From Schaalia meyeri (GTDB lineage Bacteria; Actinomycetota; Actinomycetes; Actinomycetales; Actinomycetaceae), in the NCBI RefSeq assembly GCF_900105015.1, contig NZ_FNLK01000008.1, forward strand, positions 30,001 to 62,000: a DNA stretch of 32,000 nt. Reading direction: 5' to 3'. Of this stretch, positions 5,637 to 30,251 are shown in pieces. Each line of letters starts with the position of its first letter. Position 1 is the stretch's first letter. The position numbers and the translations under genes are program-made. Under the pieces are notes generated by a model. That model saw only the letters and a list, made by a program, of their open reading frames with translations. It made no database searches and was not told the DNA's origin.

Positions 5637-7307
5637 ATGACCCCCCTATTCGTAGCCCAAACCTTTACCCCGTCGACGACGGCCGTGGCAGGAAATGTCT
5701 TCCTGACCGCTGTCGTGGGCCTCCTCCCCCTCGCTGTCTTCTTCGTCCTCATGGGCGTGTTCAAGGTCGCGACCCACTGGTGTTCGATCATCGCGCTCGT
5801 ACTCTCCCTCGTCATCGCGATCTTCGCCTTCCAGATGCCGATAGGCATGGCACTCCTGGCGGGCACGCAGGGGGCGGCAATGGGCTTCATGCCGATCATC
5901 TACATCATCATCGCGGCCGTGTGGCTGTACAACCTGACCGAGAAATCGGGCCGCAGCGCCGACCTGAAGGCCGTGTTTAACACGATCGGGCGTGGCGACC
6001 AGCGCGCTCAGGCCCTGATCGTCGCCTTCTGCTTCTGCGGCCTTCTCGAGGGACTGGCTGGCTTCGGCGCTCCCGTTGCCATCACCTGCGCGATGCTCGT
6101 CACCCTGGGGGTGCCGAAGATCAAGGCCGCCGTCGTCACCGTCGTCGGCAACGCGATCAACGTCGGCTTCGGTGCCATGGCGATCCCCACGACGACAGCC
6201 GGTCGCCTGGGTGGCGCCGACGCAACGGCCGTGGCCGCCAACATGGGTCACCTGACCTGGATCTTCTGCCTCTTCATCCCCCTCCTCCTGCTCTTCATCC
6301 TGGACGGCGGCCGCGGCGTTCGTCAGCTCTGGCCCCTCGCCCTCGTCGCCGGTGCCGCCGCCGGCGTGGGCCACTTCGTGACCCCCTCCGTTTCCTACGA
6401 GCTGACCGCCGTCGTCGCCTCCCTCCTGGGATTTGCGGCCTGCTACGTGTTCCTGCTCGTGTGGAGCCCCACGACCCCCCAGGACTGTGCGACCAGCGCG
6501 GACGAGTCGGATAAGCCCTCCGGATCCCGCATCGCGCTGGCTCTCATGCCCTACGTCCTGGTCGTCGTGATCATCGCGATCACCAAGCTGTGGAGGATCG
6601 GCGTAAGCCTGCCTGATCTGCTGAAATCAACAGACCGCGACATCCCCTGGCCCGGCATTTACGGCTCCCTGCTGGGCGCCGACGGGCAGCCCTCAACCGC
6701 TGCGATCTACACGTTGCAGATCCTGTCCAACCCCGGCACGTGGATCTTCGTCACCGGCATCATCGTGGCGATCGTGTACGGATCGAACTCCTCGGGCGGA
6801 CGCTTCGCTACCTCCATTCCCCAGATGTTCGCGGTCCTGCCGCGCACCATCTACTCGCTGCGCATGGCGATCCTGACGATCGCCTCCGTCATGGCCCTGG
6901 CCTTCGTTATGAACCTGTCCGGGCAGACCACCTCCATCGGTGCCGCGCTGGCCACGACGGGGGCGGCATTCGCCTTCCTTTCCCCGATCCTGGGATGGAT
7001 CGGCACGGCAGTCGCCGGTTCCGCGACCTCAGCGGGCGCGCTCTTCGCGAACCTCCAGTCCACCGCGGCCACCGGGGCGGGCCTGGATCCGCGCATCCTT
7101 TTGGCCGCCAACACCATCGGCGGCGGCATCGGCAAGATCGTTTCCCCCCAGAACCTGGCGATCGCGGCGACTTCCGTGGACTCCGAGGGCTCGGACGCGG
7201 AGATCCTCAAGAAGGCCGCTCCCTACTCAATCGGCCTGCTCCTGGTCCTGTGCATCCTCGTGTTCGTCTCCTCGCAGGGCTGGCTCGGCGCGTACATGCC
7301 GGCCTGA
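5637..7307 (+). CDS. lctP: L-lactate permease (LctP family)
   Basis: A polytopic membrane protein of about 556 aa. The N-terminal region NVFLTAVVGLLPLAVFFVLMG and the motif GFMPIIYIIIAAVWLYNLTEKSGR match the LldP/LctP layout. ATG 5637 has GGAG at 5628-5631, and 5607 is an alternative start. Confidence 0.9.
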   Translation: MTPLFVAQTFTPSTTAVAGNVFLTAVVGLLPLAVFFVLMGVFKVATHWCSIIALVLSLVIAIFAFQMPIGMALLAGTQGAAMGFMPIIYIIIAAVWLYNLTEKSGRSADLKAVFNTIGRGDQRAQALIVAFCFCGLLEGLAGFGAPVAITCAMLVTLGVPKIKAAVVTVVGNAINVGFGAMAIPTTTAGRLGGADATAVAANMGHLTWIFCLFIPLLLLFILDGGRGVRQLWPLALVAGAAAGVGHFVTPSVSYELTAVVASLLGFAACYVFLLVWSPTTPQDCATSADESDKPSGSRIALALMPYVLVVVIIAITKLWRIGVSLPDLLKSTDRDIPWPGIYGSLLGADGQPSTAAIYTLQILSNPGTWIFVTGIIVAIVYGSNSSGGRFATSIPQMFAVLPRTIYSLRMAILTIASVMALAFVMNLSGQTTSIGAALATTGAAFAFLSPILGWIGTAVAGSATSAGALFANLQSTAATGAGLDPRILLAANTIGGGIGKIVSPQNLAIAATSVDSEGSDAEILKKAAPYSIGLLLVLCILVFVSSQGWLGAYMPA

Positions 7308-7329
7308 TCCCCGCGCTCTCGGGGGGATT
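7306..7329 (+). terminator. Weak hairpin plus TTT overlapping the lctP stop codon
   Basis: CCCCG (7308-7312) pairs with CGGGG (7319-7323), followed by GGATTT. The stem is short and imperfect. Confidence 0.3.
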
Positions 7330-7388
7330 TGCTTCCGAGGGCACCCCCGAGTAGTCTCGCTGCATACATCCCAACGAAGGAGATTAGC

Positions 7389-7670
7389 GTGGCAAACTTG
7401 CGTTTCTCGAGCGAAGAAATCAGGGCGGCGATTGACTGTCTGGGTCGCGGTGCAAGCATCGGATTTGGTCTATCCGATCCCCCAGCACAGCCCTGCTGCA
7501 ACACGTACATCGGCAGGCTTCACCGCCCTCTTGAAGAGCTCAACAAAGAGGAAGACCATGTGAGAAGCAACATCAGTGATGCTCGCCAGAACCTACGGAC
7601 AACCATCGAGATTTTCGAGGCCACCGAAGCCCAGATTTCTCAATCCCTCAGCAGTCTGCAGAAAAGCTAA
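7389..7670 (+). CDS. Small (93 aa) predicted helical protein; candidate secretion partner or chaperone for the downstream WXG/LXG-type toxin
   Basis: GTG 7389 lies 6 nt after a strong SD, GAAGGAG (7376-7382). The C-terminal half (EELNKEEDHVRSNISDARQNLRTTIEIFEATEAQISQSLSSLQ) is heptad-like and helical. The gene ends 8 nt before the toxin ATG. Its size and position mimic the small helper proteins upstream of LXG toxins. No family was recognised. Confidence 0.55.
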   Translation: MANLRFSSEEIRAAIDCLGRGASIGFGLSDPPAQPCCNTYIGRLHRPLEELNKEEDHVRSNISDARQNLRTTIEIFEATEAQISQSLSSLQKS

Positions 7671-7678
7671 AGTACATC

Positions 7679-8704
7679 ATGATCACCAGATCCCAACTCG
7701 AAGGGTTGGACGTCCTCGCGTTCGACCCACTGCTCCAACAGATCCGGATGTCCATCCAATCCAACAAAGACAAAATCTCCGATATCGAAAAAGCAACGTC
7801 ACACATCGTATCCGGGTGGGAAGGTGAGAGCAGCAATGCCGCACAGAGCAGGCTCTCTCACATCCAGGAGCAGACCCAGAAGCACATCGATGATCTCGAG
7901 GCGATGAAAAAGACCGTCACGACCTACGTCGAGGCAAAGAAATTACGGCAAGCCCACATCCTGGCGTTCATTGCGGAGCTTAAGACACTCCAGATGACTG
8001 TCACCGATGACTGGCAGGTTCGTCCAAATATTGCGCTGATGGCTGCCGCATCTGTCGGCGGGGCATTCATCCTAGCTGCACAGGTAACGAAACGTCTGCA
8101 TGCCCTCGTCAGGATGTTTGAGCAATACGAATACGAGGCACCCATCGCAGGAGTCAGCACCGCTCCCTCGTTCGTGTCCTCGTCAGGCTACTCAACCAGC
8201 CAACCCGACAGAACGATCAATTTCGACGACGATTTTCCATACGGCTCCAAGAAGGGAAAAGAGACGTTGGAGGACCGCGCTAACTGGGCAAAATGGGGGC
8301 TCAAGCTCGAGGGGGCGGAAGCAATCGGAGGCATGCCCGACGCATGCAAAATGTATCGTCATTTCCGAGAAGGAAAAGGAACCCCCATGCGTTTCGACTA
8401 CGACAAGGCGTACCGGGAAGATGCTGGCATTCGCAACTTTGTCAATGACGAACTGAATGGGTCTCTGCAGGCAGCCAACGAGGCCGTGAAATCGGGGAAC
8501 ACAAACGTCACCCTTCACTCGCCGATGCGCACGAACAGCGGCTACTACCCCGAGACGGAAAACTGGCAGAAGACTGTCGGCGGCTACAGCAGCTACACCG
8601 AAACGAATGTCCAGGTCTCGGGAGACACAGTCACCGCCACGGTCACGGTTCACGCCAAAGACAAGTGGAACTTCAACTACGTCTCCATGTGCATTGGAGC
8701 GTGA
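7679..8704 (+). CDS. WXG100/LXG-superfamily polymorphic toxin candidate (341 aa): N-terminal WXG helical hairpin, central hydrophobic segment, C-terminal domain of unknown family
   Basis: W47-E48-G49 (nt 7817-7825) sits in SGWEGESSNAAQ at the position expected for a WXG100 hairpin turn, between two helical stretches of about 40 aa. IALMAAASVGGAFILAAQV (aa 118-136) is hydrophobic. An S/T/P linker follows, then a domain of about 165 aa (aa 178-341). The stop overlaps the start of the next gene (GTGA at 8701-8704). Confidence 0.65.
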   Translation: MITRSQLEGLDVLAFDPLLQQIRMSIQSNKDKISDIEKATSHIVSGWEGESSNAAQSRLSHIQEQTQKHIDDLEAMKKTVTTYVEAKKLRQAHILAFIAELKTLQMTVTDDWQVRPNIALMAAASVGGAFILAAQVTKRLHALVRMFEQYEYEAPIAGVSTAPSFVSSSGYSTSQPDRTINFDDDFPYGSKKGKETLEDRANWAKWGLKLEGAEAIGGMPDACKMYRHFREGKGTPMRFDYDKAYREDAGIRNFVNDELNGSLQAANEAVKSGNTNVTLHSPMRTNSGYYPETENWQKTVGGYSSYTETNVQVSGDTVTATVTVHAKDKWNFNYVSMCIGA

Positions 8705-9261
8705 CCTTGAAACTTTCCCTCCGCATTCTTGCCCCGTTGGTCGTCGTCGTGGCGCTCACCGCATGCAGCCCCTTTGCACCTAGGAACCCTCGGGTGCAGC
8801 TCCCCCACGACCCGCGCTTCACAAAATTCACGTCAAAGACCGAGGGCGACCCAAAGCTCGGCGACCAGCTGGATTCCTTCAATGAACGTATGCCCGCTCT
8901 CGGGGCAACCGAGGGCCATTTCGCAGCAGGTTTGATTCCCACCGGTTGGAGTCTCTTGCCCACCCCGGATCGGCAGCACTGGTACACCGGGGTTGCCACA
9001 GTCCCCGACGAGACGATCAAGAGACTCCAGGCCGGTGCGAGCGGTGACGCGAAGACACTGCCCGGAATTTACCCTGAGCTCTACCAGTACGTGCCTCAGG
9101 ACTGTCATTTCCCAACCATTCCATCGGACCATGCGAACAAGGTCCTTGAAACCAACAAGACAAGCATGAACAGCAAGTATGGTTCCCTCACAATCAAGGA
9201 GTTCGCCGCCTCGATGGACTGTCACCTGGTCCTGGTAGTCGGCGAGATCAGGCGCGGCTAG
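8701..9261 (+). CDS. Lipoprotein, candidate immunity protein (paralog 1)
   Basis: Signal peptide with lipobox L-T-A-C (VTLKLSLRILAPLVVVVALTAC). GTG 8701 overlaps the toxin stop. TTG 8707 (MKLSLRIL...) is an alternative start with GGAG (8696-8699) 7 nt upstream. The mature region is 54% identical to paralog 2 (89/165 positions, gapless hand alignment). Confidence 0.65.
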   Translation: MTLKLSLRILAPLVVVVALTACSPFAPRNPRVQLPHDPRFTKFTSKTEGDPKLGDQLDSFNERMPALGATEGHFAAGLIPTGWSLLPTPDRQHWYTGVATVPDETIKRLQAGASGDAKTLPGIYPELYQYVPQDCHFPTIPSDHANKVLETNKTSMNSKYGSLTIKEFAASMDCHLVLVVGEIRRG

Positions 9262-9310
9262 GAGGGCTTGTTTCTGTCCATCAGCGATGGTTCTCTTACG
9301 TAAGGTAGGC

Positions 9311-9868
9311 ATGAAACTCTTATTTCGCACTCTCGTACCGTTGGTCATCGTCGCGGCGCTGAGCGCGGCTTGCTACCCTTTTGTGCCAAGAAAACCCAAG
9401 GTGCATCTCCCCCACGACCCGCGCTTCGCCGAGTTCACGTATGAGACCGATGACGAGCTGAAGGTACAGGAGCGCATCGATTCATTTAACGAGCGTATGC
9501 CCGAACTGGGAGCGACCGAAGGACACGTCGTCGTAGCCCATTTCCGGGATGGCGCATCCTGGCAGCCGACGCCCGACCGCCAATTCTGGCTGACCGGCGT
9601 CGCCACAGTCCCCGATACGACGATCGCTATGCTCGTCGACGACAACATCGGCGAATCCTCGTTGCTGCCCGGCATCCACCCCGACCTCTACCAGTACGTG
9701 CCCGAGGAATGCTCTTTCACGACCGTTGACCCCGACGTCGCCAACAAGGTCCTCGATACCGCTCGTAACGAGTTTTATTCGGAATGGGGCTCGTTCGAGA
9801 TCCGCGAGTTCGTGTTCTCTGCCGACTGTAACCTCATCCTTGTCACCGGCGATGGCCTCCAGGGCTAG
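9311..9868 (+). CDS. Lipoprotein, candidate immunity protein (paralog 2)
   Basis: Signal peptide MKLLFRTLVPLVIVAALSAAC, with a lipobox-like ...AAC. Shared motifs with paralog 1 are LPHDPRF, DSFNERMP-LGATEGH, TPDRQ-W-TGVATVPD, LPGI-P-LYQYVP and ANKVL. ATG 9311 is preferred over the track's 9287. Confidence 0.65.
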   Translation: MKLLFRTLVPLVIVAALSAACYPFVPRKPKVHLPHDPRFAEFTYETDDELKVQERIDSFNERMPELGATEGHVVVAHFRDGASWQPTPDRQFWLTGVATVPDTTIAMLVDDNIGESSLLPGIHPDLYQYVPEECSFTTVDPDVANKVLDTARNEFYSEWGSFEIREFVFSADCNLILVTGDGLQG

Positions 9869-10462
9869 CACACCGACCTTAACGACACATATTAAGCTCC
9901 CACTCAAGATTCTCGCTCCAACTCTCGCAGTTATCGCTCTGGTCTCCGCGTGCCTCCCGTCCTCCTCCGGGCGTTCGTCCAGCCACAACACCAAACCCGC
10001 TGCATCGAAGATAGATCCCCGATTCGCTGAGTTTCAACACACCTTCAAGAAAAACCGGAGATTCAAGAAATGGTTGACATTCTCAACGAGCATTGGTCAG
10101 ACCTGGAGGCGACGGAGACTCACCTCACCCTCGCGTACTCTCGCACTGGCTTCTGTGACGTCAACATCGAACCCGAATTTTGGATGACTGGCGTCCCGAC
10201 CATTTCCGATGAAGCAATCGAGATGCTCAGCGTCAAGACAGACAATACGAATACCCTCCAGCCCGGCATCTATCCGGGCCTCTACCAATACGTGCCCCAG
10301 GACTGCCACTTCTCCATGATCCCCGCCGACCACGCCAATGAGACCCTCGAGACGAAGACGACCAAGTCTTCCTCTCCCTTCGGCTCGTTCAAGGTCCAGG
10401 AGCTCGCCGTTTCCGCGGACTGCCACCTCGTCGTCGTGACGGGAGAGGGAGTGATGGGATAG
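9852..10462 (+). pseudogene. Lipoprotein, candidate immunity paralog 3, disrupted by a 1-nt frameshift near the A5 run at 10050-10054
   Basis: The N-terminal part (lipobox V-S-A-C, then IDPRFAEFQHTF) is in frame 0, within track ORF 9726..10187. The C-terminal part (EKPEIQEMVDILNEHWSDLEATETH...LQPGIYPGLYQYVPQDCHF...SADCHLVVVTGEGVMG) is in frame 2. Frame 2 has a stop at 10028-10030, so the switch must fall between 10031 and about 10055. The codon homologous to the paralog start codons is ATT (9891-9893). The only upstream ATG (9852) lacks an SD. Confidence 0.6.
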
Positions 10463-10487
10463 CAACTCACCCACAATCCCCGGCCCG

Positions 10488-10509
10488 GGCCTCGTCCATT
10501 GTCGAGGCC
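10488..10509 (+). terminator. Short hairpin after the third lipoprotein gene
   Basis: GGCCTCG (10488-10494) pairs with CGAGGCC (10503-10509) across an 8-nt loop. There is no T-tract. Confidence 0.3.
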
Positions 10510-10760
10510 GAGGTGCCAGTGCGCTCACTCGCGACCATCGCAAAAATGAAAAACGAAAACTCACCCTGAGCTAAGTCGCCTTCCATGCGCCTCATTTCTT
10601 TCGGATACAAGGGATTTTTCGACGATGATTTTTCTTTAGTTTTCCGCGAGAATTCGCCGCTCACGCGCCATCCTCCACACAGCGGACACGAGAATACACC
10701 CCGGGACCTCCGACCTAGTCATAACCTGAGACTGACAGCACCTACGAGGAAGGATCCCCC

Positions 10761-11558
10761 GTGCGCATCGCTCTCTTTTCCACCTGCCTAGCAGACGTCA
10801 TGTTCCCCCAGGCGGCCCAGGCGACAGTGACCCTGCTCGAACGCCTCGGCCATGAGGTCGTCTTCCCCGAAGGCCAGGTCTGCTGCGGCCAGATGCACGC
10901 CAACACCGGCTATTTTGAAGACGCAGCGAAGATCACCCGTAACCACGTCAAGGCCTTCGAGCCCGTCCTGGACGGACTATGGGACGCCATCGTCGTTCCC
11001 TCCGGCTCCTGCACCGGCGCAGCACGCCACGAACAGAAGGTCGTCGCCGAACACGTTGGAGACACAGAGCTGGCCAAGCAGTCCCAGCGCATCGCCCAGC
11101 ACACCTACGACCTCACCGAACTCCTCACCGACGTCCTGGGCCTGGAAGACGTGGGCGCATACTTCCCCCACACCGTCACCTACCACCCGACCTGCCACTC
11201 CCTGCGCATCGCCAGGGTCGGCGACCGCCCCTACCGCCTGCTGCGCCAGGTCGAAGGACTGACCCTCATCGACCTGCCGGACGCCGAGGTCTGCTGCGGA
11301 TTCGGCGGCACCTTCTCCATGAAGAACTCCGAAACTTCCACGTCGATGCTGGCCGACAAAGTCGCCAACGTCATGTCCACGCGCGCAGAGGTCCTGGTCA
11401 TGGGCGACTACTCCTGCCTCCTGCACGTCGGCGGCGGCCTCTCCCGCCTCAACTCCGGTATCCGCCCCATACACCTCGCCGAAATCCTGGCATCCACCAA
11501 GGACCAGCCCTTCCAGGGCAACATCTCCTTCGCACCCGAAAGCGCACAGGTGATCTGA
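10761..11558 (+). CDS. lutA: Lactate utilization protein A (Fe-S oxidoreductase, CCG-domain)
   Basis: N-terminus RIALFSTCLADVMFPQAAQATVTLLERLGHEVVFPEGQVCCGQMH, and a second CCG motif (EVCCGFGGTF). The start is GTG 10761, with GAGGAAGGA at 10746-10754. Confidence 0.9.
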   Translation: MRIALFSTCLADVMFPQAAQATVTLLERLGHEVVFPEGQVCCGQMHANTGYFEDAAKITRNHVKAFEPVLDGLWDAIVVPSGSCTGAARHEQKVVAEHVGDTELAKQSQRIAQHTYDLTELLTDVLGLEDVGAYFPHTVTYHPTCHSLRIARVGDRPYRLLRQVEGLTLIDLPDAEVCCGFGGTFSMKNSETSTSMLADKVANVMSTRAEVLVMGDYSCLLHVGGGLSRLNSGIRPIHLAEILASTKDQPFQGNISFAPESAQVI

Positions 11559-13903: not shown

Positions 13904-13999
13904 TATGTGTCGGCAGCATTGGCGAGGACGCACGGCAGACAAGCAGCTACATTCCGACGATCGCGAGGAAGAATACAATCCCCTGAGCAAACGGCGGCA

Positions 14000-16489
14000 T
14001 CAGCGCAGGTATCGTCCCGTCACCGAATCAGCTTCGGCGGCGATATCGCGGGCAGTTCCGCAGGCGACGACGCGCCCGCCCAGGGCACCGCCGCCCGGCC
14101 CCATGTCGATCACCCAGTCGGAGTTGGCGATGACATCCAGGTCGTGCTCGATGACGACGACGGTGGCACCGCGGTCGATGAGACGCTGGAGGACGTCGAG
14201 GAGGACCTGCACGTCCTCCGGGTGCAGGCCGATCGTCGGTTCGTCGAACACGAAGAGCGCACCCTCCTGGCGCCTGCCCATCTCCGAGGCGAGCTTGAGC
14301 CGCTGGGCCTCGCCTCCCGACAGGGCGGGCGTGGCCTCGCCGAGCGTCAGGTAGCCCAGTCCCAAGCCCGAGAGGGTGTCGAGCAGCGCCCCAGCCTTCC
14401 TCAGGCCTCGCACCGCGCCCCGCGCGTCGTCCACGCTCATCGCCATGATGTCGGGCAGGCTGAGTCCATCGCGACGAATCTGCCCCGCATCCTGGCTGTA
14501 CCTGCTGCCCCGGCAGTGCGCGCACTCGACATCAACGTCAGGCAGGAACTGCACGTCCAAGGTGATCTGGCCGGTCCCCTCGCACGTGGGGCATCGCAGC
14601 GACCCCGTGTTGTAGGAGAAGGCCCCGGCCTTCAGCCCAGCCGCCCGCGCCGCCTCCGTGCGTGCGAAGGCCCGGCGCAGCTCGTCCAGGACCCCGCAGT
14701 ACGTGGCCACGGTGGAGCGCACGTTCACGCCGATCGGCGTCGCGTCGATCAAGTGGACGCGCGAGATGCCCGCCGCGTCCACGTCCCGCACGTGACCGGG
14801 CAGCGCCTCCCCCGCCAGGGCGGCCCGCAGGGCGGGCACCAGGGACTCCAGGACCATCGTCGTCTTACCCGATCCGCTGACCCCCGTCACCGCCGTGAGT
14901 GCCCCCACCGGGATATCAACGTTCAGGGGGTGGACGGTGTGGATCCGCTCAGTCTCCAGGTGGATGGCGCCGCGCCCGTCCGCGCCCGACGCACCGTGTC
15001 CCTGCGCCTTTAAGGCTCGCCGCCCCGACCCCGCCGGCCGCTCCACACGGCGACTCCCGGCCAGGTACGGGCCGATGCGAGAAGCGGGTGCTCGGCATGC
15101 CTCGTCGATCGGTCCCTGGAAGATGACGCGGCCGCCGTCAGCGCCCGCGCCCGGTCCGATCTCGATCAGATGGTCGGCGGCAGCCAGCACGCGGGTGTCG
15201 TGGTCAACCACGACGGCCGAGTTCCCGTCCGCGATGAGATCGCGGACGATGCCCAGGACCCCGTCGACGTTGGAGGGGTGCAGGCCGATGGTCGGCTCGT
15301 CCAGGACGTAGAGGACGCCGGTCGTACGGTTGCGGACCGCCCGAGCCAACTGCACACGCTGGCGCTCGCCGTTGGACAGCGTGGAGGAGGCCCGGTCCAG
15401 CGACAGGTAGGACAGGCCCAGGTCCGCCAGGCGCTTCATCGGCTCTGCCATCTCATCGACGATGACGCGGGCCATGGGCGCGACCTCGCCGGGGACGAGG
15501 CCGGGCACGCGCGCCACCCACTCGCGCAGCTCGGCCAGGGACAGGCGCGAGGCCTGGCCCAGGTCGATGCCGTCGATCAGGGTCGAGCGCACCCGCTCCC
15601 CCAGGCGCGTGCCCTCGCAGGCGGGGCAGGTGCGCGTGATGAGGTACTTGCCGACGCGGGCGAGGGCCTTCTCATCCTTGGCCTTGGCGAGCGCGTTCTC
15701 CACGGTCGCGACCGCGTTGAAATACGTGAAGTCCAGCTCCGCGCCACCCGTCTTCGTGGCAACGACAATGTGGTGTTTCTCGGCGGGTCCCTCGTAGACG
15801 ATGGCCTTCTCCGCCTCGCTCAGATCACGGAAGGGCACGTCGGTGCGCACGCCCATCTCTCTGGCGACGTCCTTCATGAGCTTCCACATGAGGGAACCCC
15901 ACGGGGACACTGCCCCCTCGTCGATCGATCGGGACTCGTCTGGCACGAGCGCGGCGCGGTCGACGACACGCTGGATCCCGGTCCCCTCGCACACGGGGCA
16001 CGCGCCGGCGGAATTGAAGGCCATCTCCTCGGCGCCCAGCCCGTAGAAGGACTCGGAGCACTGCGGGCACACGAGCGGCACTTCCAGAGCCACGTTGCGC
16101 GACGGGGGCACGCGGTGCCCGCTGGGGCACAGGTAGGAGCCCACGCGCGAGAACAGCAGGCGCAGGTGGTTCGCCAGCTCCGTAGCCGTACCGAATGTGG
16201 AGCGCACGCCGGGCGCGCCCGGGCGCTGGCGCAGAGCGAGGGCAGCGGGGACGTGGATGACCTCGTCGACCGAGGCCTTGGCCGCCTGGGAGATGCGCCT
16301 GCGCGTGTAGGTCGCCAGGGACTCCAGGTAGCGGCGAGAGCCTTCCGCGTAGAGCGTGCCCAGGGCCAGGGAGGACTTGCCCGACCCAGACACGCCCGCG
16401 ATGGCGACAAACCGGTTCAGGGGAACATCGACGTCTACGTTCTTCAGGTTGTGGACGCGGGCGCCGCGCACGCGTATGACGCTGGGCAC
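14000..16489 (-). CDS. UvrA-family ABC ATPase paralog lacking the UvrB-binding insert
   Basis: N-terminus IRVRGARVHNLKNVDVDVPLNRFVAIAGVSGSGKSSLALGTLYAEGSRRY, with two ABC modules (a second Walker A, TGVSGSGKTT) and zinc modules. At 829 aa it is shorter than canonical UvrA. Only about 35 aa separate the first CP... Cys module from FNSAGACPVCEGTG, where canonical UvrA carries the UvrB-binding domain. The GTG start (16489-16487) lies 1 nt after the era stop. Confidence 0.85.
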   Translation of the reverse strand: MPSVIRVRGARVHNLKNVDVDVPLNRFVAIAGVSGSGKSSLALGTLYAEGSRRYLESLATYTRRRISQAAKASVDEVIHVPAALALRQRPGAPGVRSTFGTATELANHLRLLFSRVGSYLCPSGHRVPPSRNVALEVPLVCPQCSESFYGLGAEEMAFNSAGACPVCEGTGIQRVVDRAALVPDESRSIDEGAVSPWGSLMWKLMKDVAREMGVRTDVPFRDLSEAEKAIVYEGPAEKHHIVVATKTGGAELDFTYFNAVATVENALAKAKDEKALARVGKYLITRTCPACEGTRLGERVRSTLIDGIDLGQASRLSLAELREWVARVPGLVPGEVAPMARVIVDEMAEPMKRLADLGLSYLSLDRASSTLSNGERQRVQLARAVRNRTTGVLYVLDEPTIGLHPSNVDGVLGIVRDLIADGNSAVVVDHDTRVLAAADHLIEIGPGAGADGGRVIFQGPIDEACRAPASRIGPYLAGSRRVERPAGSGRRALKAQGHGASGADGRGAIHLETERIHTVHPLNVDIPVGALTAVTGVSGSGKTTMVLESLVPALRAALAGEALPGHVRDVDAAGISRVHLIDATPIGVNVRSTVATYCGVLDELRRAFARTEAARAAGLKAGAFSYNTGSLRCPTCEGTGQITLDVQFLPDVDVECAHCRGSRYSQDAGQIRRDGLSLPDIMAMSVDDARGAVRGLRKAGALLDTLSGLGLGYLTLGEATPALSGGEAQRLKLASEMGRRQEGALFVFDEPTIGLHPEDVQVLLDVLQRLIDRGATVVVIEHDLDVIANSDWVIDMGPGGGALGGRVVACGTARDIAAEADSVTGRYLR

Positions 16490-16490
16490 G

Positions 16491-17747
16491 TCAGAACCCC
16501 AGGCGCCCCAGCATCTTCGGGTCGGACTGCCAGTCCTTCGCCGTACGCACGTGCAGGTCCAGGTAGACGCGCCGCCCCAGCAGCTCCTCGATGTGGGCGC
16601 GAGAGCGCGTGCCGATCTGCTTCAGGCGCGAACCCTTGCGGCCGATGATGATGGCCTTCTGGGAGTCGCGCTCCACGTAGACGTTGACGTGGATGTCCAG
16701 CATGGGCGCTCGCTCGTCGCCCTCGCGCCGGGGGCGCTCGATAATCTCCTCGACCTGGACGGCCAGGGAGTGGGGCAGCTCGTCGCGCACGCCCTCGAGG
16801 GCGGCCTCGCGGATGAACTCGGCGATCAGGGTGTCCCGTGATTCGTCCGTAACATCCCCTTCGGGATACAGCGGGGGCGAGAGCGGCACCGTCTGGGCGA
16901 GCACGTCGCGCAGGTGGTCGATGCCTTTGCCTTCCACGGAGGAAACGGGAACGATGGCCGCCCAATTCCCCAGCGCCTCAATCGAGAGCAGGTGCTTCAT
17001 GACGCGCTCACGCGGAACGGCGTCGCACTTGGTGGCCACAGCGACGATCGGACGTTTCACGGCGCGCAGTTCGCGGGCGATGAACTGGTCGCCGGGGCCG
17101 ATGCGCTGGTTCGCGGGCAGGCAAAAGAGGACGACGTCCACCTCGGAGAGGGCCTCGCGCACCATGTCGTTGAGCCGTTTGCCCAGCAGGGTGCGGGGGC
17201 GGTGGTATCCGGGCGTGTCCACGAGGACCAGCTGATACCCCTCGCCGTGGACGATGCCTCGGATGTTGTGGCGCGTGGTCTCGGGGCGCCCCGACGTGAT
17301 CGCGATCTTGCGCCCGACCAGGGCGTTCGTCAGGGTGGATTTGCCGACGTTGGGGCGCCCGACGACGGAGATAAAGCCCGCGCGAAAGTCCTCAGGAAAA
17401 TCGGGGATATCGATCGTGGCCACCGCGTCCCGCCGCAGCGATGCCACTGAAGTCATCGCCTCGAAGGCACCCAGGTCCGCGTCCTCCTCGCCCGCCAGGC
17501 CGTCCTCGGCGTCACAGTCGCCGATGTCATCACCGGCCTCGGTGTCACCGAAATCGGCGTCGGACCCATCCTCGGAGTCATCGCCGAGCTCATCCCCAGC
17601 CCCATCCCGGTTAACGTCACCGACGCCTCGGCCTATCTGCGCGCGCGCGTCGGCTTCCGGGTCGGCGGCGTCGGGGGCCACCTCGATGCGCGCGTCGTCC
17701 AGGGCGTTGGGGCCGGCCATGAGTTCGTGGTCGGAGGGGAATCGCAT
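16491..17747 (-). CDS. era: GTPase Era with an acidic N-terminal extension of about 115 aa
   Basis: G1 motif GRPNVGKSTL, then DTPG and a C-terminal KH domain. The G1 motif sits near aa 130 rather than near aa 10-15. The preceding region is rich in D, E, G and A. ATG 17747 lies 1 nt after the upstream gene's stop. Confidence 0.9.
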   Translation of the reverse strand: MRFPSDHELMAGPNALDDARIEVAPDAADPEADARAQIGRGVGDVNRDGAGDELGDDSEDGSDADFGDTEAGDDIGDCDAEDGLAGEEDADLGAFEAMTSVASLRRDAVATIDIPDFPEDFRAGFISVVGRPNVGKSTLTNALVGRKIAITSGRPETTRHNIRGIVHGEGYQLVLVDTPGYHRPRTLLGKRLNDMVREALSEVDVVLFCLPANQRIGPGDQFIARELRAVKRPIVAVATKCDAVPRERVMKHLLSIEALGNWAAIVPVSSVEGKGIDHLRDVLAQTVPLSPPLYPEGDVTDESRDTLIAEFIREAALEGVRDELPHSLAVQVEEIIERPRREGDERAPMLDIHVNVYVERDSQKAIIIGRKGSRLKQIGTRSRAHIEELLGRRVYLDLHVRTAKDWQSDPKMLGRLGF

Positions 17748-17748
17748 G

Positions 17749-19110
17749 TCAGTTGTCCTTGTCGTCGGCGGGGTTTTGGTCGGGGGTCAGGGCGGGATAG
17801 TCGGGGTCGAGGCGGCAGACGATGGTGGAGACCTGGCGGCGGCGCCCGCGCGCCTCTTCGGCGGTCATGGTGACGCCCGCGAGCGTGCCCGTAGCACCGG
17901 GCAGGGGAACCTTGCCGATGGCCTTGGCCAGCAGTCCACCGACGGAGTCCACGTCCGTGTCCTCGATGTCCCGGCCCAGCAGCTCGCCCAGTTCAGAGAT
18001 CGGATAGCGCGCGGGAACACGCCACGTGCCGGGCTCCGTTTCTTCGGGTTCCACGCTGTGGCGGTCGTGTTCGTCGGTGAGCTCTCCGACGACCTCCTCA
18101 ATGATATCTTCGAGGGTGACCAGTCCGGCGACGCCCCCGTACTCGTCGATGACGATGGCCATGTGAAAGCGCTGGGCCTGCATCTGGCGGAGCATGTCGT
18201 CGGCCGGCTTCATTTCGACGGCGTATTCGGCGGGGCGCATCATCTGTTCGGCGCGCATGTCCAGCTGGCCGCCGTGCGCTTCCCAGCGGGAAACGACGTC
18301 CTTGAAATAGAGGATGCCGCGGATGTCGTCCACGTCGTCTCCGACGACGGGCACGCGCGAGAAGCCCGAGCGCACGAAGAGGCGCAGCGCGGAGGGCGCG
18401 GGCGTGTCCGCGTCAATCGTCACCATGTCGGTGCGCGGCACCATGACCTCGCGCACCAGGGTGTGTCCCAGGTCCAGGACGGATCGCACCATGTCCCGGT
18501 CCTCTTCCTCGAAACTCTCGGGTTCGCCGACCTCGTCGACGATCTCGCGCAGGTCTAAGATCACCTCGGCGCGCACCTGCGCCTCCGTGGGGGCCGGGGC
18601 TGGCCGTAAGGAGCGCAGGCGCCGCAGCGCGGGGTCGGCCAGGTGGCTGAGGCGCGACAGATAGGAGGCGAAGCCCGTTCCCGCCAGCGCGATGCCTTCG
18701 GGGTTGGCTGCCCCCCACCGGGCGGGGATGTATGAGACGAACAGGAGCTGGAGTGCGGAGATGCCCAGGACCGCGATCAGGGCGACCGCCCACCAGGGCA
18801 GTCCCGTGCTCACCAGGACGATCGTGACCATGACGGCGTAAACGACCTGCCAGAAGGTGCGGAAGGCCCGCAGGGACAGCAGCGTGCGCCGACGACGGTC
18901 GACCAGCGCGTACAGGAGCTGCGCGTTCTTACGTTTTGCCTCGATGAGGTCCTCTACCCCGGCCAGGGTCAGGCGCTGGACGGATTGTTCGACGCACTGG
19001 GCCAGGGAGGCGGCGGCCAGCGCGATGAGGGCGAGGACCAGCAGCGCCAGGGAGGGCACGCCCGGAAGCGACGAGGCCGGGGCCGCCTCCAGGGGCAAAA
19101 CAGGGGTCAT
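17749..19110 (-). CDS. DUF21/CBS-pair/CorC_HlyC-domain membrane protein (hemolysin-family, CorC/TlyC-like)
   Basis: N-terminal TM helices, a CBS-pair region (VREVMVPRTDMV...) and a C-terminal transporter-associated domain. It overlaps the ybeY stop by 4 nt. Confidence 0.88.
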   Translation of the reverse strand: MTPVLPLEAAPASSLPGVPSLALLVLALIALAAASLAQCVEQSVQRLTLAGVEDLIEAKRKNAQLLYALVDRRRRTLLSLRAFRTFWQVVYAVMVTIVLVSTGLPWWAVALIAVLGISALQLLFVSYIPARWGAANPEGIALAGTGFASYLSRLSHLADPALRRLRSLRPAPAPTEAQVRAEVILDLREIVDEVGEPESFEEEDRDMVRSVLDLGHTLVREVMVPRTDMVTIDADTPAPSALRLFVRSGFSRVPVVGDDVDDIRGILYFKDVVSRWEAHGGQLDMRAEQMMRPAEYAVEMKPADDMLRQMQAQRFHMAIVIDEYGGVAGLVTLEDIIEEVVGELTDEHDRHSVEPEETEPGTWRVPARYPISELGELLGRDIEDTDVDSVGGLLAKAIGKVPLPGATGTLAGVTMTAEEARGRRRQVSTIVCRLDPDYPALTPDQNPADDKDN

Positions 19111-25306: not shown

Positions 25307-25371
25307 GTGTTGTTGCCTCAGCGCGGCGCCCTACTGGGGACGTGGGGGTGCCACGGCCTGGTCAGTGGCGC

Positions 25372-27747
25372 TCATCCGAGCCACGCGCCCGAGGGACTGA
25401 AGTGGAACCAGGATCCGTTGATGCGGACCCATCCGGTGGCCATCTTGCCGGTCGCGGTGTCCAGGTAGTACCAGGTGTCGCCGTCCTTCAGCCAGCCGGT
25501 GGCCATCTTGCCAGAGCCGTCCAGGTAGTACCAGGAACCGTCCAGGTTGGTCCATCCGGTGGCCATCTTGCCGGAGGCATCCAAGTAGTACCAGGAGTCG
25601 CCGTCTTTCAGCCAGCCGGTGGCCATCTTGCTGGAGGCATCCATGTAGTACCAGGAGCCGCGGTCGTTGACCCAGCCGGTCGTGGCGCGGCCGGAGGCGT
25701 TCATCCAGTGCCACGCGCCGTCGTAGTAAGCCCAGCCGGTGACCATGATGCCGTCCTCGTCGAAGTAGTAGTCACCGTCGCCGATCCTCAGGTGCTCGCT
25801 CTTCGCGCAGGAGCCGTCGTCGTAGCAGTAGCTCCAACCGTTAGCGCCGTTGGACCAGGCCCCGCCCTCGCGCACGTATTTGTCGACGTGGAAGTGGGCG
25901 GGTTCCGTCACGTCATCGTCGGCACGAATATCCTTGTTCCGACCTTCGGCGGCGACGGTGGCGTGTGCGGAGGTGCCCACGAGGGGGGACAGGTCGATGG
26001 GGCCGGCGGTGACGGTGACCTCGTTGCCGGTGAAAGAGCCGTCACCGGCGCCTCGTGCGAAGGCGAGGCCCGCGACGTTGAGGGTCACGGCGGTGACCGG
26101 ACCGGAGGCGGTCACGCGCACGTGGATCGTGCCGGACACGCGCGCGCCGGCCAGCGGCTTCCAGTCGGTGAGGCCGTCTCGCGAGTACTCCACCACGCCG
26201 ATGGTCGGCTTGGGCTGATCTTCCAGGACGGCCGCCAGCGCGTTCGCCAGGCCCGCACCGCGATATTCCTTGCCGTCCTCGGGGGCGGCCAGTCGATTAT
26301 AGGTGTAGCCGGCCTGCTTCTTGAGCAAGTTGATCGTCTGATCGGCAGTGTAGTCCGGGTGGATCTCCTTGATCAGCGCGGCGACTCCAGCCACGTGCGG
26401 GGAGGCCATGGAGGTGCCGGACAGGTAGGCAAAGGGAGGGTTCTGCTTCCACGTGGGAACCGTCGACCAGATGCGGCTGCCCGGGGCTGCCACGTCAACG
26501 GAGTTCTTGCCGTAGTTCGAGAACTTCGAGCGATTGAGGGTGGCGGTCGCGGGATCGGCGCCACCGGGCAGGGCCAGAGCGGCCACGGACACGACCGAAT
26601 CGTTCAGCATGGAGGGAACGTCGATGCCGCCTCGAACGTCACGCTCGCGCGCGGCTCCCTCGACGTCATTCGGGGAGTCGCTGTCCTTCGTCGGATTGTC
26701 GTGGTCGTCGTTGCTGTTGCCCTCGGCGGCGATGTTCACCACGCCCTGGGCCTTCGAGTATCGGACCGCGCGGGACGCGGCCTCGAGACCCGCAGCCTGG
26801 GAGCTCTCGCCCGGCATCCAGAAGGCGTAGGGGTCCATGTAGTAGCTGGAGTTTGTCACGTCGATGCCGTGGTCGGCTGCCCAGTCAAAGGCGCAGGCCA
26901 CGTACTCGGGGTAAAAGGAACCGGCCAGGTTCGAGGTCTTGATGGCGACGAGCGTCGCATCGGGGGCCACGCCATCCACGCCGTAGGCGTTGTGTGCGGC
27001 GGCAATCGTGCCGGCGACGTGCGTGCCGTGGTAGTGGTCGTCCTTCCACGCTGAGGGATCCTGGTTCGGGATGCCATTCACCTGGCAACCGACGGACAGG
27101 GAGGTGTCGATCCTGTCCTTGAGGTCCTTGTGGTCGGGGTCGATGCCGGTGTCCATGACGGCGACGGTCACCTTTTCGCGGGGCACGTCAACCTTCTGGG
27201 CTTCGATCGATCCGATCGCGGTCAGACCCCACGCGTTGGCGTCTCCCACGTCGGGGGTGAAGTCGTTGAGCTGGGAGTCGGCGGACAGGCCGGTCACGTG
27301 GGTGCCGGCGGCCTCGGAGACGGCGGCCGCTTCAGCGGGGGTGGCCTGCGGCTGCTCGGTACGGACCTCTTCACCGGTGACGGTCTTGTAGCGGGTGGGG
27401 CCGATCGAGTGATAGGAGATTCCCGCGTCGACCAGGCTCTTGCCGAGCGCCGGAGCGAAGGACGCCTTCACCGACTGGACGAAGAAGGCGTTGAATTCGG
27501 GGTACTGGGCCAGGAGCACGCCGCTTTCCGAGGCCTTGGAGACGGCCGCGTTGAATTCGTAGCGCGAGGCGTCGGCAGGCAGGTTGACGGCGTAGTTCAT
27601 GACCTCGTCTTGGGCGCGCGCCTCGGAGGTGATCCCAGGGACACCGGCCGCGTGGGCGGGCGCACCGAATGCGGTGATCGTCAAGCCCGCAGCGAGGGCG
27701 GTTCCTCCCGCGATGAGGGTTTTCCATGAGCGTTGATGCATCATCAT
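25372..27747 (-). CDS. Secreted subtilisin-like (S8) serine protease with C-terminal cell-wall-binding repeats
   Basis: Signal peptide MMMHQRSWKTLIAGGTALAAGLTITAFGAPAHA. Catalytic triad motifs VAVMDTGID, HGTHVAGTIAA and SGTSMASPHVAGVAAL. The C-terminus carries about 6-7 repeats of GW-x5-G-x-WYY-x4-G-KMATGW. The start is one of three consecutive ATGs at 27747, 27744 and 27741. Confidence 0.9.
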   Translation of the reverse strand: MMMHQRSWKTLIAGGTALAAGLTITAFGAPAHAAGVPGITSEARAQDEVMNYAVNLPADASRYEFNAAVSKASESGVLLAQYPEFNAFFVQSVKASFAPALGKSLVDAGISYHSIGPTRYKTVTGEEVRTEQPQATPAEAAAVSEAAGTHVTGLSADSQLNDFTPDVGDANAWGLTAIGSIEAQKVDVPREKVTVAVMDTGIDPDHKDLKDRIDTSLSVGCQVNGIPNQDPSAWKDDHYHGTHVAGTIAAAHNAYGVDGVAPDATLVAIKTSNLAGSFYPEYVACAFDWAADHGIDVTNSSYYMDPYAFWMPGESSQAAGLEAASRAVRYSKAQGVVNIAAEGNSNDDHDNPTKDSDSPNDVEGAARERDVRGGIDVPSMLNDSVVSVAALALPGGADPATATLNRSKFSNYGKNSVDVAAPGSRIWSTVPTWKQNPPFAYLSGTSMASPHVAGVAALIKEIHPDYTADQTINLLKKQAGYTYNRLAAPEDGKEYRGAGLANALAAVLEDQPKPTIGVVEYSRDGLTDWKPLAGARVSGTIHVRVTASGPVTAVTLNVAGLAFARGAGDGSFTGNEVTVTAGPIDLSPLVGTSAHATVAAEGRNKDIRADDDVTEPAHFHVDKYVREGGAWSNGANGWSYCYDDGSCAKSEHLRIGDGDYYFDEDGIMVTGWAYYDGAWHWMNASGRATTGWVNDRGSWYYMDASSKMATGWLKDGDSWYYLDASGKMATGWTNLDGSWYYLDGSGKMATGWLKDGDTWYYLDTATGKMATGWVRINGSWFHFSPSGAWLG
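25375..25790 (-). repeat. 60-63 bp tandem coding repeats encoding the cell-wall-binding (CW_binding_1-like) modules
   Basis: The string CCGGTGGCCATCTTGC recurs at 25433, 25496, 25556 and 25616, with a diverged unit retaining only CCGGT at 25676. The period is 60-63 bp. Confidence 0.8.
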
Positions 27748-30079: not shown

Positions 30080-30251
30080 AGCATTCTCCTTCGAAACTGC
30101 AACTGAGCTTATGGTTGTCGGCTATCATAGTGCCTTAATCAACCCAATGTACGAGGTCCGCCACGGAATCCGGGTCACGCCCGGGACGCTCTGCCCGACG
30201 ACCCACATCTGCATCAAGCAGGCCTCGCCTGATCCTCAAGGAGGAGGACTC

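What the first reader, a model, noticed from the sequence alone, without database searches (positions are those of the whole stretch)
8210..8704. Toxin C-terminal domain (about 165 aa) that I cannot assign to any known toxin family
The sequence of aa 178-341 is TINFDDDFPYGSKKGKETLEDRANWAKWGLKLEGAEAIGGMPDACKMYRHFREGKGTPMRFDYDKAYREDAGIRNFVNDELNGSLQAANEAVKSGNTNVTLHSPMRTNSGYYPETENWQKTVGGYSSYTETNVQVSGDTVTATVTVHAKDKWNFN... It shows no motif I recognise: no HNH, ART R-S-E, deaminase HxE/CxxC, NlpC/P60 DCSG, lipase GxSxG or colicin-type pore helices. It has one Cys and several His, Asp and Tyr residues that could be catalytic. The C-terminal third looks beta-rich. Because the cognate immunity candidates are lipoproteins, the target is probably outside the cytoplasm, for example cell wall, lipid II or the outer face of the membrane.
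Basis: inference. Interest (0 to 1): 0.75.

Follow-up and report, generated by a model that had tools for sequence, protein, structure and literature searches.

The report
Truncated secreted toxin with lipoprotein immunity
This Schaalia meyeri gene is a deletion-damaged copy of a bacterial warfare toxin from a large, unnamed family that probably attacks cell-wall building blocks outside the membrane, and the strain has kept the lipoprotein antidote genes.

Summary
The ORF 7679-8704 (341 aa) is real and its C-terminal part matches no Pfam, NCBIfam or PDB sequence. It is incomplete. A 523-bp deletion between 8677 and 8678 fused toxin codon 333 to the last 8 codons of the next gene. This removed 59 toxin residues, including 14 of the family's 37 most conserved positions, and a 120-aa gene. 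Intact 392-aa alleles, identical over residues 1-333, exist in metagenomes. The truncated allele is in a complete Schaalia meyeri genome and several independent samples.

The intact domain (about 208 aa) defines a large uncurated family of at least 873 clusters. It is always C-terminal, behind WXG100/LXG/T7SS-signal or Rhs modules. In 74 of 78 genomic loci a homologous lipoprotein gene follows it.

A confident AlphaFold model most resembles the Bacteroides fragilis T6SS effector BtpeA C-terminal domain, then colicin M. Profile comparison aligns the family's D-x-Y/W-N-F-N with colicin M's catalytic D-K-Y-D-F-N. The full DxYD(x5)HR motif is not kept.

Most likely this is a disarmed colicin-M-like toxin cassette that retains immunity. 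It is moderately interesting as a family and ordinary as a locus.

The parts
7389..7670 (+). Small helical partner gene (93 aa) upstream of the toxin, probably a WXG100/Lap-like secretion partner
   Evidence: Called as a 93-aa gene in the identical S. meyeri genome locus L089. A homologous 92-aa gene sits upstream of the toxin in Schaalia loci L003/L004, and a 97-aa paralogue matches at E=2e-14. Only a weak Pfam LXG hit, E=0.087.
7679..8704 (+). Fusion ORF (341 aa): toxin residues 1-333 plus the last 8 residues of the downstream 120-aa gene. NCBI names it hypothetical protein I6H42_01610 [Schaalia meyeri]
7679..8140 (+). N-terminal helical WXG100-like domain (about aa 1-154, W47-E-G motif), the presumed type VII secretion targeting module
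   Evidence: Pfam WXG100 E=1.4e-4, below the gathering score. NCBIfam TIGR03930 E=1e-4. AF2 shows long helices at 12-46 and 50-103. Foldseek hit to EsxA:EsxB 4lws_A, prob 0.99, TMt 0.82.
8210..8677 (+). Remnant (aa 178-333) of the roughly 208-aa toxin domain. It keeps the helical subdomain and the first strands up to D328-K-W-N-F-N333
   Evidence: Alignments A1/A2, conservation table, AF2 model of the intact allele.
8677..8678 (.). Deletion junction. 523 bp present in intact alleles (L001 1645-2167) are missing here. No microhomology at the junction
   Evidence: blastn: L001 1-1644 = window 7034-8677 and L001 2168-2962 = window 8678-9472, 99.7% identity. Junction sequences.
8678..8704 (+). Last 8 codons (YVSMCIGA) and stop of the otherwise deleted 120-aa gene, now read in frame with the toxin
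   Evidence: The L001 120-aa product ends ...CGHYVYVSMCIGA*.
8707..9261 (+). Lipoprotein paralogue 1 (184 aa, lipobox LTAC), an immunity candidate
   Evidence: AF2 model pLDDT 80.8.
9311..9868 (+). Lipoprotein paralogue 2 (185 aa, lipobox SAAC), an immunity candidate
9891..10462 (+). Lipoprotein paralogue 3, a pseudogene. It has ATT in place of the start codon and a frameshift in an A-run near 10047-10056
   Evidence: Only the 130-aa C-terminal part is called in L089-L091.

Best explanation
The ORF is a deletion allele of a polymorphic antibacterial toxin of Schaalia meyeri. The intact protein (392 aa) has an N-terminal WXG100-like helical domain, inferred to target it to a type VII secretion system together with the small helical protein encoded upstream. 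It also has a roughly 208-aa C-terminal toxin domain from a large, uncurated family. Across Actinomycetota, and in Rhs toxins of other phyla, that domain is followed by a homologous 155-200-aa lipoprotein. The lipoprotein is inferred to be the immunity protein, neutralising the toxin on the outer face of the cytoplasmic membrane. The predicted fold resembles the Bacteroides fragilis T6SS effector BtpeA C-terminal domain and the colicin M catalytic domain. The family's invariant D328-x-[Y/W]-N-F-N segment aligns with colicin M's catalytic D226-K-Y-D-F-N. The most likely activity (inferred, about 50%) is therefore cleavage of lipid II or another polyprenyl-diphosphate-linked envelope precursor, which would block cell-wall synthesis. 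In this window a 523-bp deletion removed the last 59 toxin codons (a helix, the final strand, and D338, D345, N348-G-R-F, G355-W) and 112 of 120 codons of the next gene. That gene encodes a cytoplasmic protein specific to the Actinomyces/Schaalia clade, probably a producer-side chaperone or pre-export inhibitor. The toxin is therefore very probably dead. Two intact lipoprotein genes remain, so the strain is disarmed but probably still immune.
For: Deletion allele:
- 100% identity to P0017 over residues 1-333.
- A clean 523-bp gap with 99.7%-identical flanks and an in-frame fusion.
- The truncated protein is in complete genome CP066065.1 and in 9 other contigs, 5 shown from separate sequencing runs. 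Both alleles are in one 90% cluster.

Toxin family:
- 873 representative clusters at E<=1e-3. The domain is always at the C-terminus, with tails of 58 aa or less in 177 of 178.
- N-terminal partners are RHS, WXG100, LXG, T7SS_signal and EspC. The Rhs_assc_core ends just before the domain.

Immunity:
- A lipoprotein-family gene lies within 1.5 kb downstream on the same strand in 74 of 78 loci, often with a 4-bp overlap.
- Schaalia versus distant lipoproteins: hhalign P=4e-5 on mature parts. Rhs-linked lipoprotein versus the actinobacterial ones: P=1.4e-6.

Fold:
- AF2 pLDDT 88.6.
- Foldseek: 9jdi_A BtpeA CTD E=1.1e-3, prob 1.0, 239 columns. Colicin M 2xtq_A/3da4_A E about 0.02, prob 0.82-0.84.
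- hhalign of the domain profile against a colicin M family profile: score 26.6, P=0.0022, 156 colinear columns. Column-shuffled controls gave 13.1 +/- 2.4, maximum 23.3, 0 of 200 reaching the real score.
- Colicin M's essential residues, periplasmic site of action and membrane-anchored immunity are taken from PMC8469651.

Loss of function:
- 14 of the 37 positions conserved at 85% or more lie in the deleted part.

The 120-aa gene:
- Present in all Actinomyces/Schaalia-type loci, with no signal peptide or TM segment.
- It decayed together with the toxin a second time, independently, in L133-L135 while a lipoprotein stayed intact.
Against: - The link to colicin M is weak by database-search standards. 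hhalign probability is 13%, the Foldseek TM-scores are low (computed on the full-length model), and there is no sequence-level hit to the Pfam Colicin_M model or to any PDB chain.
- Only two of colicin M's five essential residues have identical or like counterparts. D229 aligns with N, R236 with D, and H235 is not conserved.
- The biochemical activity of BtpeA could not be retrieved from the held literature.
- The lipoprotein model matches no solved immunity protein such as BtpiA, Cmi or TipC.
- No T7SS core genes lie in the window. The rest of the genome was not examined.
- No experiment shows toxicity, immunity or secretion for any family member.
Confidence: 0.6

Rival explanations
1. The family is a genuine exported toxin with lipoprotein immunity, but its activity is not cleavage of lipid II. 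It might hit another envelope target, form pores, hydrolyse peptidoglycan, or attack teichoic-acid or arabinogalactan carrier lipids. On this view the resemblance to colicin M and BtpeA is shared architecture only.
For: The canonical DxYD(x5)HR motif is not kept. hhalign probability is only 13%. The family has its own invariant block, D338...D345..NGRF..GW, which colicin M lacks. The function of BtpeA is unknown to me.
Against: The alignment runs colinearly over nearly the whole catalytic domain and scores 5.6 SD above shuffled controls. The match falls on the catalytic D-x-Y-x-F-N segment and on the HY..G.G helix. Colicin M is the only functionally characterised fold in the top Foldseek hits.
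Confidence: 0.28
2. The truncated 341-aa protein is still a working toxin, or has gained a new function such as a secreted decoy or regulator. The deletion allele would then be maintained for that reason.
For: The ORF is intact and in frame. It keeps the secretion domain and 23 of 37 conserved positions. The allele recurs in at least two sequenced S. meyeri strains and several metagenomes.
Against: It lacks the terminal helix and strand of the sheet and the most conserved motif of the family. Another lineage at the same locus carries plain nonsense mutations, which points to relaxed selection on the toxin. The third lipoprotein gene is also decaying.
Confidence: 0.08
3. The 120-aa cytoplasmic protein is the true cognate immunity protein and the target is cytoplasmic. 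The lipoproteins would then be unrelated neighbours.
For: It is the gene immediately downstream of the toxin in every Actinomyces/Schaalia-type locus. It was lost together with toxin function twice.
Against: It is absent outside that clade. Elsewhere the lipoprotein directly abuts or overlaps the toxin gene in 74 of 78 loci, including Rhs-type loci. Retaining lipoproteins after toxin loss is what defence against neighbours' toxin predicts.
Confidence: 0.06
4. It is not a toxin at all. It would be a secreted WXG-family protein with a self-directed or host-directed function.
For: No experimental toxicity data exist. All database names are 'hypothetical protein'.
Against: The same C-terminal domain is grafted behind Rhs cores and several T7SS modules, followed by a small, rapidly diverging partner gene present in paralogous arrays. 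That is the signature of polymorphic toxin-immunity systems.
Confidence: 0.04

Closest known systems
BtpeA C-terminal domain with immunity protein BtpiA (Bacteroides fragilis T6SS effector, PDB 9jdi; Li W et al., Cell Host Microbe 2025, not readable here)
   Same: Best structural match to the model: Foldseek E=1.1e-3, prob 1.0, 239 aligned columns. It is also the C-terminal toxin domain of a contact-dependent antibacterial effector with a dedicated immunity protein.
   Different: 13% identity and no sequence- or profile-level hit. Delivery is by T6SS PAAR spike rather than a WXG/T7SS or Rhs module. The lipoprotein model does not match BtpiA. I could not verify the activity of BtpeA.
Colicin M family (Pfam PF14859; lipid II-degrading bacteriocins ColM, PaeM, pectocins M, syringacin M)
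   Same: Fold-level resemblance: Foldseek prob 0.82-0.84. The profile alignment is colinear over 156 columns and well above shuffled controls. D-x-Y/W-x-F-N matches the catalytic D226-K-Y-D-F-N. The 'Y.HY...G' helix matches 'AHYLWGNG'. The domain is a C-terminal toxin module. Immunity is by a membrane-anchored extracytoplasmic protein encoded downstream.
   Different: No hit to the Pfam model. The DxYD(x5)HR motif is not conserved: D229 is N, H235 is variable, R236 is D. There is an extra helical subdomain and an extra invariant block, D338...D345-x-x-N-G-R-F. The hosts are Gram-positive or mycolate bacteria. Delivery is by T7SS or Rhs rather than TonB-dependent import. The immunity protein is unrelated to Cmi and PmiA.
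TelC-TipC (Streptococcus intermedius LXG toxin, a T7SS-exported lipid II phosphatase)
   Same: Works alike at system level. It is a WXG-superfamily N-terminal domain plus a C-terminal toxin that acts outside the membrane on a cell-wall precursor, with an extracytoplasmic membrane-tethered immunity protein that often occurs in paralogous arrays (PMC5555719 and PMC6193138, listed).
   Different: TelC belongs to the Lipocone superfamily (10.1101/2025.01.14.632903). No TelC structure appears among the Foldseek hits, and the lipoprotein does not match TipC.
[quoted passage not shown]
   Same: They set the precedent that distant colicin M-fold domains serve as polymorphic-toxin modules with periplasmic, membrane-anchored immunity proteins (PMC11148199).
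   Different: No Pfam DUF3289 hit in any family member scanned. Those cases are Gram-negative, with T6SS or Cystatin-like/lipobox delivery. Identity with the Aravind domain could not be tested because no sequences were at hand.

Membership tests
Colicin M family (Pfam PF14859) | Significant match to the Colicin_M profile | tested here: not met
   No Colicin_M hit at E<=1 for the window protein, for the full-length homologues listed, or at E<=1e-3 for 65 diverse members.
Colicin M family (Pfam PF14859) | Catalytic signature DxYD(x5)HR (D226, Y228, D229, H235, R236 essential; PMC8469651, PMC5821083) | tested here: not met
   In the hhalign alignment D328=D226 (100% conserved) and Y/W330=Y228. 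N331 (96%) replaces D229, the position of H235 is variable, and D338 (98%) replaces R236.
Colicin M family (Pfam PF14859) | Fold of the colicin M catalytic domain | tested here: inconclusive
   Foldseek 2xtq_A/3da4_A E about 0.02, prob 0.82-0.84, 123-125 columns, rmsd 7.5-8.1 on the full-length model. hhalign P=0.0022, with 0 of 200 shuffles reaching the score. No residue-level superposition was possible.
Colicin M family (Pfam PF14859) | Hydrolysis of lipid II between undecaprenol and diphospho-MurNAc | not testable with these tools
   Needs a TLC or HPLC assay with purified domain.
WXG100 / LXG type VII secretion substrates | N-terminal helix-turn-helix domain with a W-x-G turn, matching the WXG100 or LXG profiles | tested here: inconclusive
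   W47-E-G49 is present. Pfam WXG100 scores 22.5 bits against a 27.3 cutoff, E=1.4e-4. TIGR03930 is also below cutoff. Foldseek to EsxA:EsxB 4lws_A gives prob 0.99, TMt 0.82. Other family members carry bona fide WXG100, LXG, T7SS_signal or EspC domains.
WXG100 / LXG type VII secretion substrates | A T7SS apparatus (EccC/EssC etc.) in the genome and dependence of export on it | not tested
   No T7SS core gene among the large ORFs of the 32-kb window. The rest of the genome was not available to the tools.
Polymorphic toxin systems (Zhang/Aravind sense) | The same C-terminal toxin domain recombined behind different trafficking modules | tested here: met
   RHS (8 of 65 members), WXG100, LXG, T7SS_signal, WXG100_2 and EspC N-termini. 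Rhs_assc_core ends about 10 residues before the domain. The domain is C-terminal in 177 of 178.
Polymorphic toxin systems (Zhang/Aravind sense) | Cognate immunity gene immediately downstream, co-varying with the toxin domain | tested here: met
   Lipoprotein family within 1.5 kb downstream in 74 of 78 loci. Homology across clades by hhalign. Paralogous arrays in Schaalia. Function as immunity is not shown.
BtpeA-CTD-like T6SS effector domain (PDB 9jdi) | Structural similarity of the toxin domain | tested here: met
   Foldseek top hit, E=1.1e-3, prob 1.00, TMq 0.33 on the 392-aa model, 239 columns.
BtpeA-CTD-like T6SS effector domain (PDB 9jdi) | Detectable sequence homology and a BtpiA-like immunity protein | tested here: not met
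   No PDB sequence or profile hit. The lipoprotein model has no PDB match better than E=0.43.
TelC / Lipocone lipid II phosphatase toxins | Lipocone fold | tested here: not met
   No TelC or other Lipocone structure among the 50 best Foldseek PDB hits.

The most novel reading that the evidence does not exclude
The intact family is a previously undescribed branch of colicin-M-fold enzymes with a rebuilt active site (D-x-Y-N-F-N...D...D-x-x-N-G-R-F). Actinobacteria, including Mycobacterium, Nocardia and oral Actinomyces/Schaalia, would export it through type VII/ESX systems, and other phyla through Rhs, to cleave polyprenyl-diphosphate-linked envelope precursors of neighbours. A new lipoprotein fold would provide immunity. 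In the Schaalia clade a new 120-aa cytoplasmic partner would hold the folded toxin in check before export.
Probability: 0.35. Interest if true: 0.7.

Novelty: new variant of a known kind. Interest (0 to 1): 0.5.

Why it matters
If the inference holds, this gives a name and a testable mechanism to a toxin-immunity family of at least 873 sequence clusters that no curated database covers. It would add a second, structurally unrelated class of cell-wall-precursor toxins (after TelC) to the type VII secretion repertoire. It would also extend the colicin M fold into Gram-positive and mycolate bacteria, including Mycobacterium and Nocardia, where antibacterial ESX substrates are little known. At population level the locus is a clear natural example of toxin loss with immunity kept. 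In S. meyeri an intact and a deleted allele coexist in human-associated samples, and another lineage lost the toxin by nonsense mutations. That makes it a usable system for studying cheater dynamics in the oral microbiome. The window copy itself is a damaged gene and is ordinary in that respect.

Tried and rejected
- **Sequence searches of the C-terminal domain and its full-length relatives.** Pfam, NCBIfam and PDB sequences, with single sequences and two profiles, gave only N-terminal WXG100 or Rhs hits.
- **tblastn for the missing C-terminal block** in other frames of the window found nothing, so this is a deletion and not a frameshift.
- **Foldseek of the toxin model against BFVD** gave nothing informative.
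- **Foldseek of the lipoprotein model against PDB** gave no hit better than E=0.43, so no link to BtpiA, Cmi or TipC.
- **Attempts to learn BtpeA's activity or sequence.** The paper is not held, and citing papers give only names.
- **hhalign against colicin M alone or three sequences** was too weak, P=0.083 and 0.014. It improved only with a deeper family alignment.
- **The 120-aa gene as the cognate immunity gene.** Considered and rejected because it is confined to one clade, while the lipoprotein tracks the toxin everywhere.
- **Assembly artefact as the cause of the truncation.** Considered and rejected because the same allele is in a finished genome and in independent runs.
- **T7SS core genes in the window.** None found.
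Full report
**Observation**

Neither this stretch nor full-length relatives match any Pfam, NCBIfam or PDB sequence. The only sequence signal is a sub-threshold WXG100 match at residues 20-82 (E=1.4e-4).

The cassette at about 7.3-10.7 kb has lower G+C (0.57-0.59) than its flanks (0.64-0.70). It lies between a lactate permease gene and lutABC. The same synteny is seen in Schaalia genomes.

**The copy is truncated**

Homologues found with the C-terminal part continue 55-65 residues beyond '...KDKWNFN' with the best-conserved block of the family. No frame of the window encodes that block.

A profile search returned P0017, a 392-aa protein identical to window residues 1-333. Its contigs L001 and L002 align to the window at 99.7% on both sides of a 523-bp segment that the window lacks, between 8677 and 8678.

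The deletion removed four things:
- the last 59 toxin codons;
- the stop codon;
- a 7-nt spacer;
- 112 of 120 codons of the next gene.

Because the two genes differ in frame by one base and 523 mod 3 = 1, the toxin now runs into the last 8 codons (YVSMCIGA) of that gene.

The allele is not an artefact. The exact 341-aa protein is in the complete Schaalia meyeri genome CP066065.1 (QQC44146.1, 'hypothetical protein'). It is also in 9 other contigs, 5 of which are shown and come from separate sequencing runs. The 90% cluster holds both 392-aa and 341-aa forms.

**What the intact domain is**

An exhaustive profile search finds 873 representative clusters (237 at E<=1e-30). In 177 of 178 full-length instances the domain ends within 58 residues of the C-terminus.

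N-terminal partners include RHS repeats, WXG100, LXG, T7SS_signal, WXG100_2 and EspC. In Rhs members the Rhs-associated core (TIGR03696) ends about 10 residues before the domain.

A genome scan found it in 198 species-level genomes. These are mostly Actinomycetota: Actinomyces/Schaalia/Pauljensenia, Lentzea, Nocardia, Mycobacterium/Mycolicibacterium, Terrabacter, Intrasporangium and others. There is also a Burkholderiales MAG and a Kiritimatiellia MAG. This is the anatomy of a polymorphic-toxin C-terminal module.

**Immunity**

In distant loci the gene that abuts the toxin, often with a 4-bp overlap, encodes a 155-200-aa protein with a signal peptide and lipobox and a shared motif, 'VRTDLEPLTKRFPALG...PGPSTYWIDAVV'.

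The three window lipoprotein paralogues (8707-9261, 9311-9868 and the decayed 9891-10462) belong to the same family:
- hhalign of Schaalia against distant lipoproteins gives P=5.7e-7, and 4e-5 with signal peptides removed;
- the lipoprotein downstream of an Rhs-type toxin matches the actinobacterial ones at P=1.4e-6.

With family HMMs, 74 of 78 evaluable loci have such a gene within 1.5 kb downstream on the same strand. The family has 406 detectable members and no Pfam domain. Its AF2 model (pLDDT 80.8) matches nothing solved.

It has not been shown experimentally.

**The 120-aa gene**

This gene occurs only in the Actinomyces/Schaalia clade, between toxin and lipoproteins, in every such locus, including a divergent copy in L023. 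It has no signal peptide or TM segment.

It was lost with toxin function twice. One loss is the window's deletion. The other is in a second lineage (L133-L135), where the toxin has stops at codons 64 and 326 and the 120-aa gene has a frameshift and a stop, while a lipoprotein gene stays intact.

I infer a producer-side role, either a chaperone or a pre-export inhibitor of a substrate that folds in the cytoplasm. It is probably not defence against incoming toxin.

**Mechanism**

AF2 on a 47-sequence alignment gave a confident model of the intact protein (pLDDT 88.6). It has an N-terminal helical hairpin domain, then a four-helix subdomain (197-271), then an antiparallel sheet (276-373) with a helix at 345-353.

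Foldseek against PDB gave these hits:

| Target | E-value | Probability | Other |
|---|---|---|---|
| 9jdi_A, BtpeA CTD (B. fragilis T6SS effector, crystallised with its immunity protein) | 1.1e-3 | 1.0 | 239 columns |
| Colicin M, 2xtq_A / 3da4_A | about 0.02 | 0.82-0.84 | 123-125 columns |
| EsxA:EsxB, 4lws_A (for the N-terminal domain) | 0.58 | 0.99 | TMt 0.82 |

I then built a colicin M family alignment. It used ColM (my recalled sequence, checked against 2xmx_A, one residue corrected), two plasmid homologues and eight metagenomic ones.

hhalign of the 178-sequence toxin-domain profile against it gives score 26.6, P=0.0022, over 156 colinear columns. Column-shuffled controls gave 13.1 +/- 2.4 (maximum 23.3; 0 of 200 reached the real score), and the reversed alignment gave 16.2.

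The alignment puts 'Y.HY...G' on colicin M 'AHYLWGNG'. It puts D328-K-W-N-F-N on the catalytic D226-K-Y-D-F-N. [quoted passage not shown]

Here D328 is invariant and 330 is Y or W. However, 331 is N, the H235 position varies, and D338 replaces R236. The family also has its own invariant D345-x-x-N-G-R-F...G-W block.

I therefore read it as a distant colicin-M-fold relative with a rebuilt active site. It is not a member of the ColM family. I put about 50% on cleavage of lipid II or a related polyprenyl-PP-linked precursor.

**State of the window copy**

Fourteen of the 37 positions conserved at 85% or more lie in the deleted part. They are D338, G342, D345, N348, G349, R350, F351, G355, W356, A357, F360, G364, W372 and G375. 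The deleted part also holds the 345-353 helix and the last strand. The protein is very probably inactive as a toxin.

Two lipoprotein genes are intact. The third has ATT for its start and a frameshift in an A-run. The locus is best described as disarmed but probably still immune.

**Comparison with known systems, and novelty**

- At system level it works like TelC-TipC (a T7SS toxin acting on lipid II outside the membrane) but has a different fold.
- At fold level it is nearest to BtpeA-CTD and colicin M, but it fails the ColM profile and motif tests.
- Distant colicin M-fold toxin modules have been reported for T6SS (DUF3289, PMC11148199) and in the Lipocone preprint.
- I found no description of a WXG/T7SS- or actinobacterial Rhs-linked version. 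I could not check whether the Aravind domain overlaps this family.

I rate it a new variant of a known kind. As a family it is of moderate interest. The particular gene in the window is a decayed allele.

**Limits**

- BtpeA's activity could not be read.
- No residue-level structural superposition was possible.
- T7SS genes elsewhere in the genome were not examined.
- There are no experimental data for any family member.

Noticed in passing
window 9891-10462: The third lipoprotein paralogue is a pseudogene. It has ATT where the paralogues have ATG, and a frameshift in an A-run near 10047-10056 splits it into an N-terminal signal/lipobox part and a 130-aa C-terminal ORF (10070-10462). The same state is seen in CP066065.1 and in metagenome contigs.
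   Followed up: yes
L133-L135 (ENA metagenome contigs, same LeuA / lactate permease / lutABC synteny): Independent decay of the same cassette in another lineage. The toxin has in-frame stops at codons 64 and 326. The 120-aa gene has a frameshift and an internal stop. A single lipoprotein gene is intact.
   Followed up: yes
L001 1832-2194; L003 7209-7571 (deleted from window at 8677|8678): A 120-aa cytoplasmic protein family with no Pfam or NCBIfam match. It is found only in the Actinomyces/Schaalia/Pauljensenia clade, between toxin and lipoprotein genes. Its role is unknown; a producer-side chaperone or inhibitor is proposed.
   Followed up: partly
L003/L004 10346-11115: Schaalia genomes carry, after four lipoprotein genes, an orphan pair: a 97-aa small helical protein and a 159-aa WXG-like N-terminal domain with no toxin domain. 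This looks like a remnant or recombination substrate. It is absent from the window.
   Followed up: no
L037 5757-6104 and the equivalent genes in L045, L057, L060, L063, L065, L067, L078, L080: In Nocardia loci a conserved 114-116-aa gene ('HDELG.KVQRAQ..L..IRG.G.VDG..VEVDAEN...') directly follows the lipoprotein gene. It has no NCBIfam hit and its function is unknown.
   Followed up: no
window 7000-11000: The toxin-immunity cassette has G+C of 0.57-0.59 against 0.64-0.70 in the flanking housekeeping genes. This fits a horizontally acquired island inserted between the lactate permease gene and lutABC.
   Followed up: partly
window 13907-15010, 15170-16645, 17254-18555, 25342-27051, 30111-31289: Five long + strand ORFs gave no Pfam hit at E<=1e-5. 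In this high-G+C sequence some overlap annotated-looking genes on the other strand (for example Era GTPase at 16494-17747 and a CorC/CNNM transporter at 17752-19110, both on the - strand) and may be spurious.
   Followed up: no
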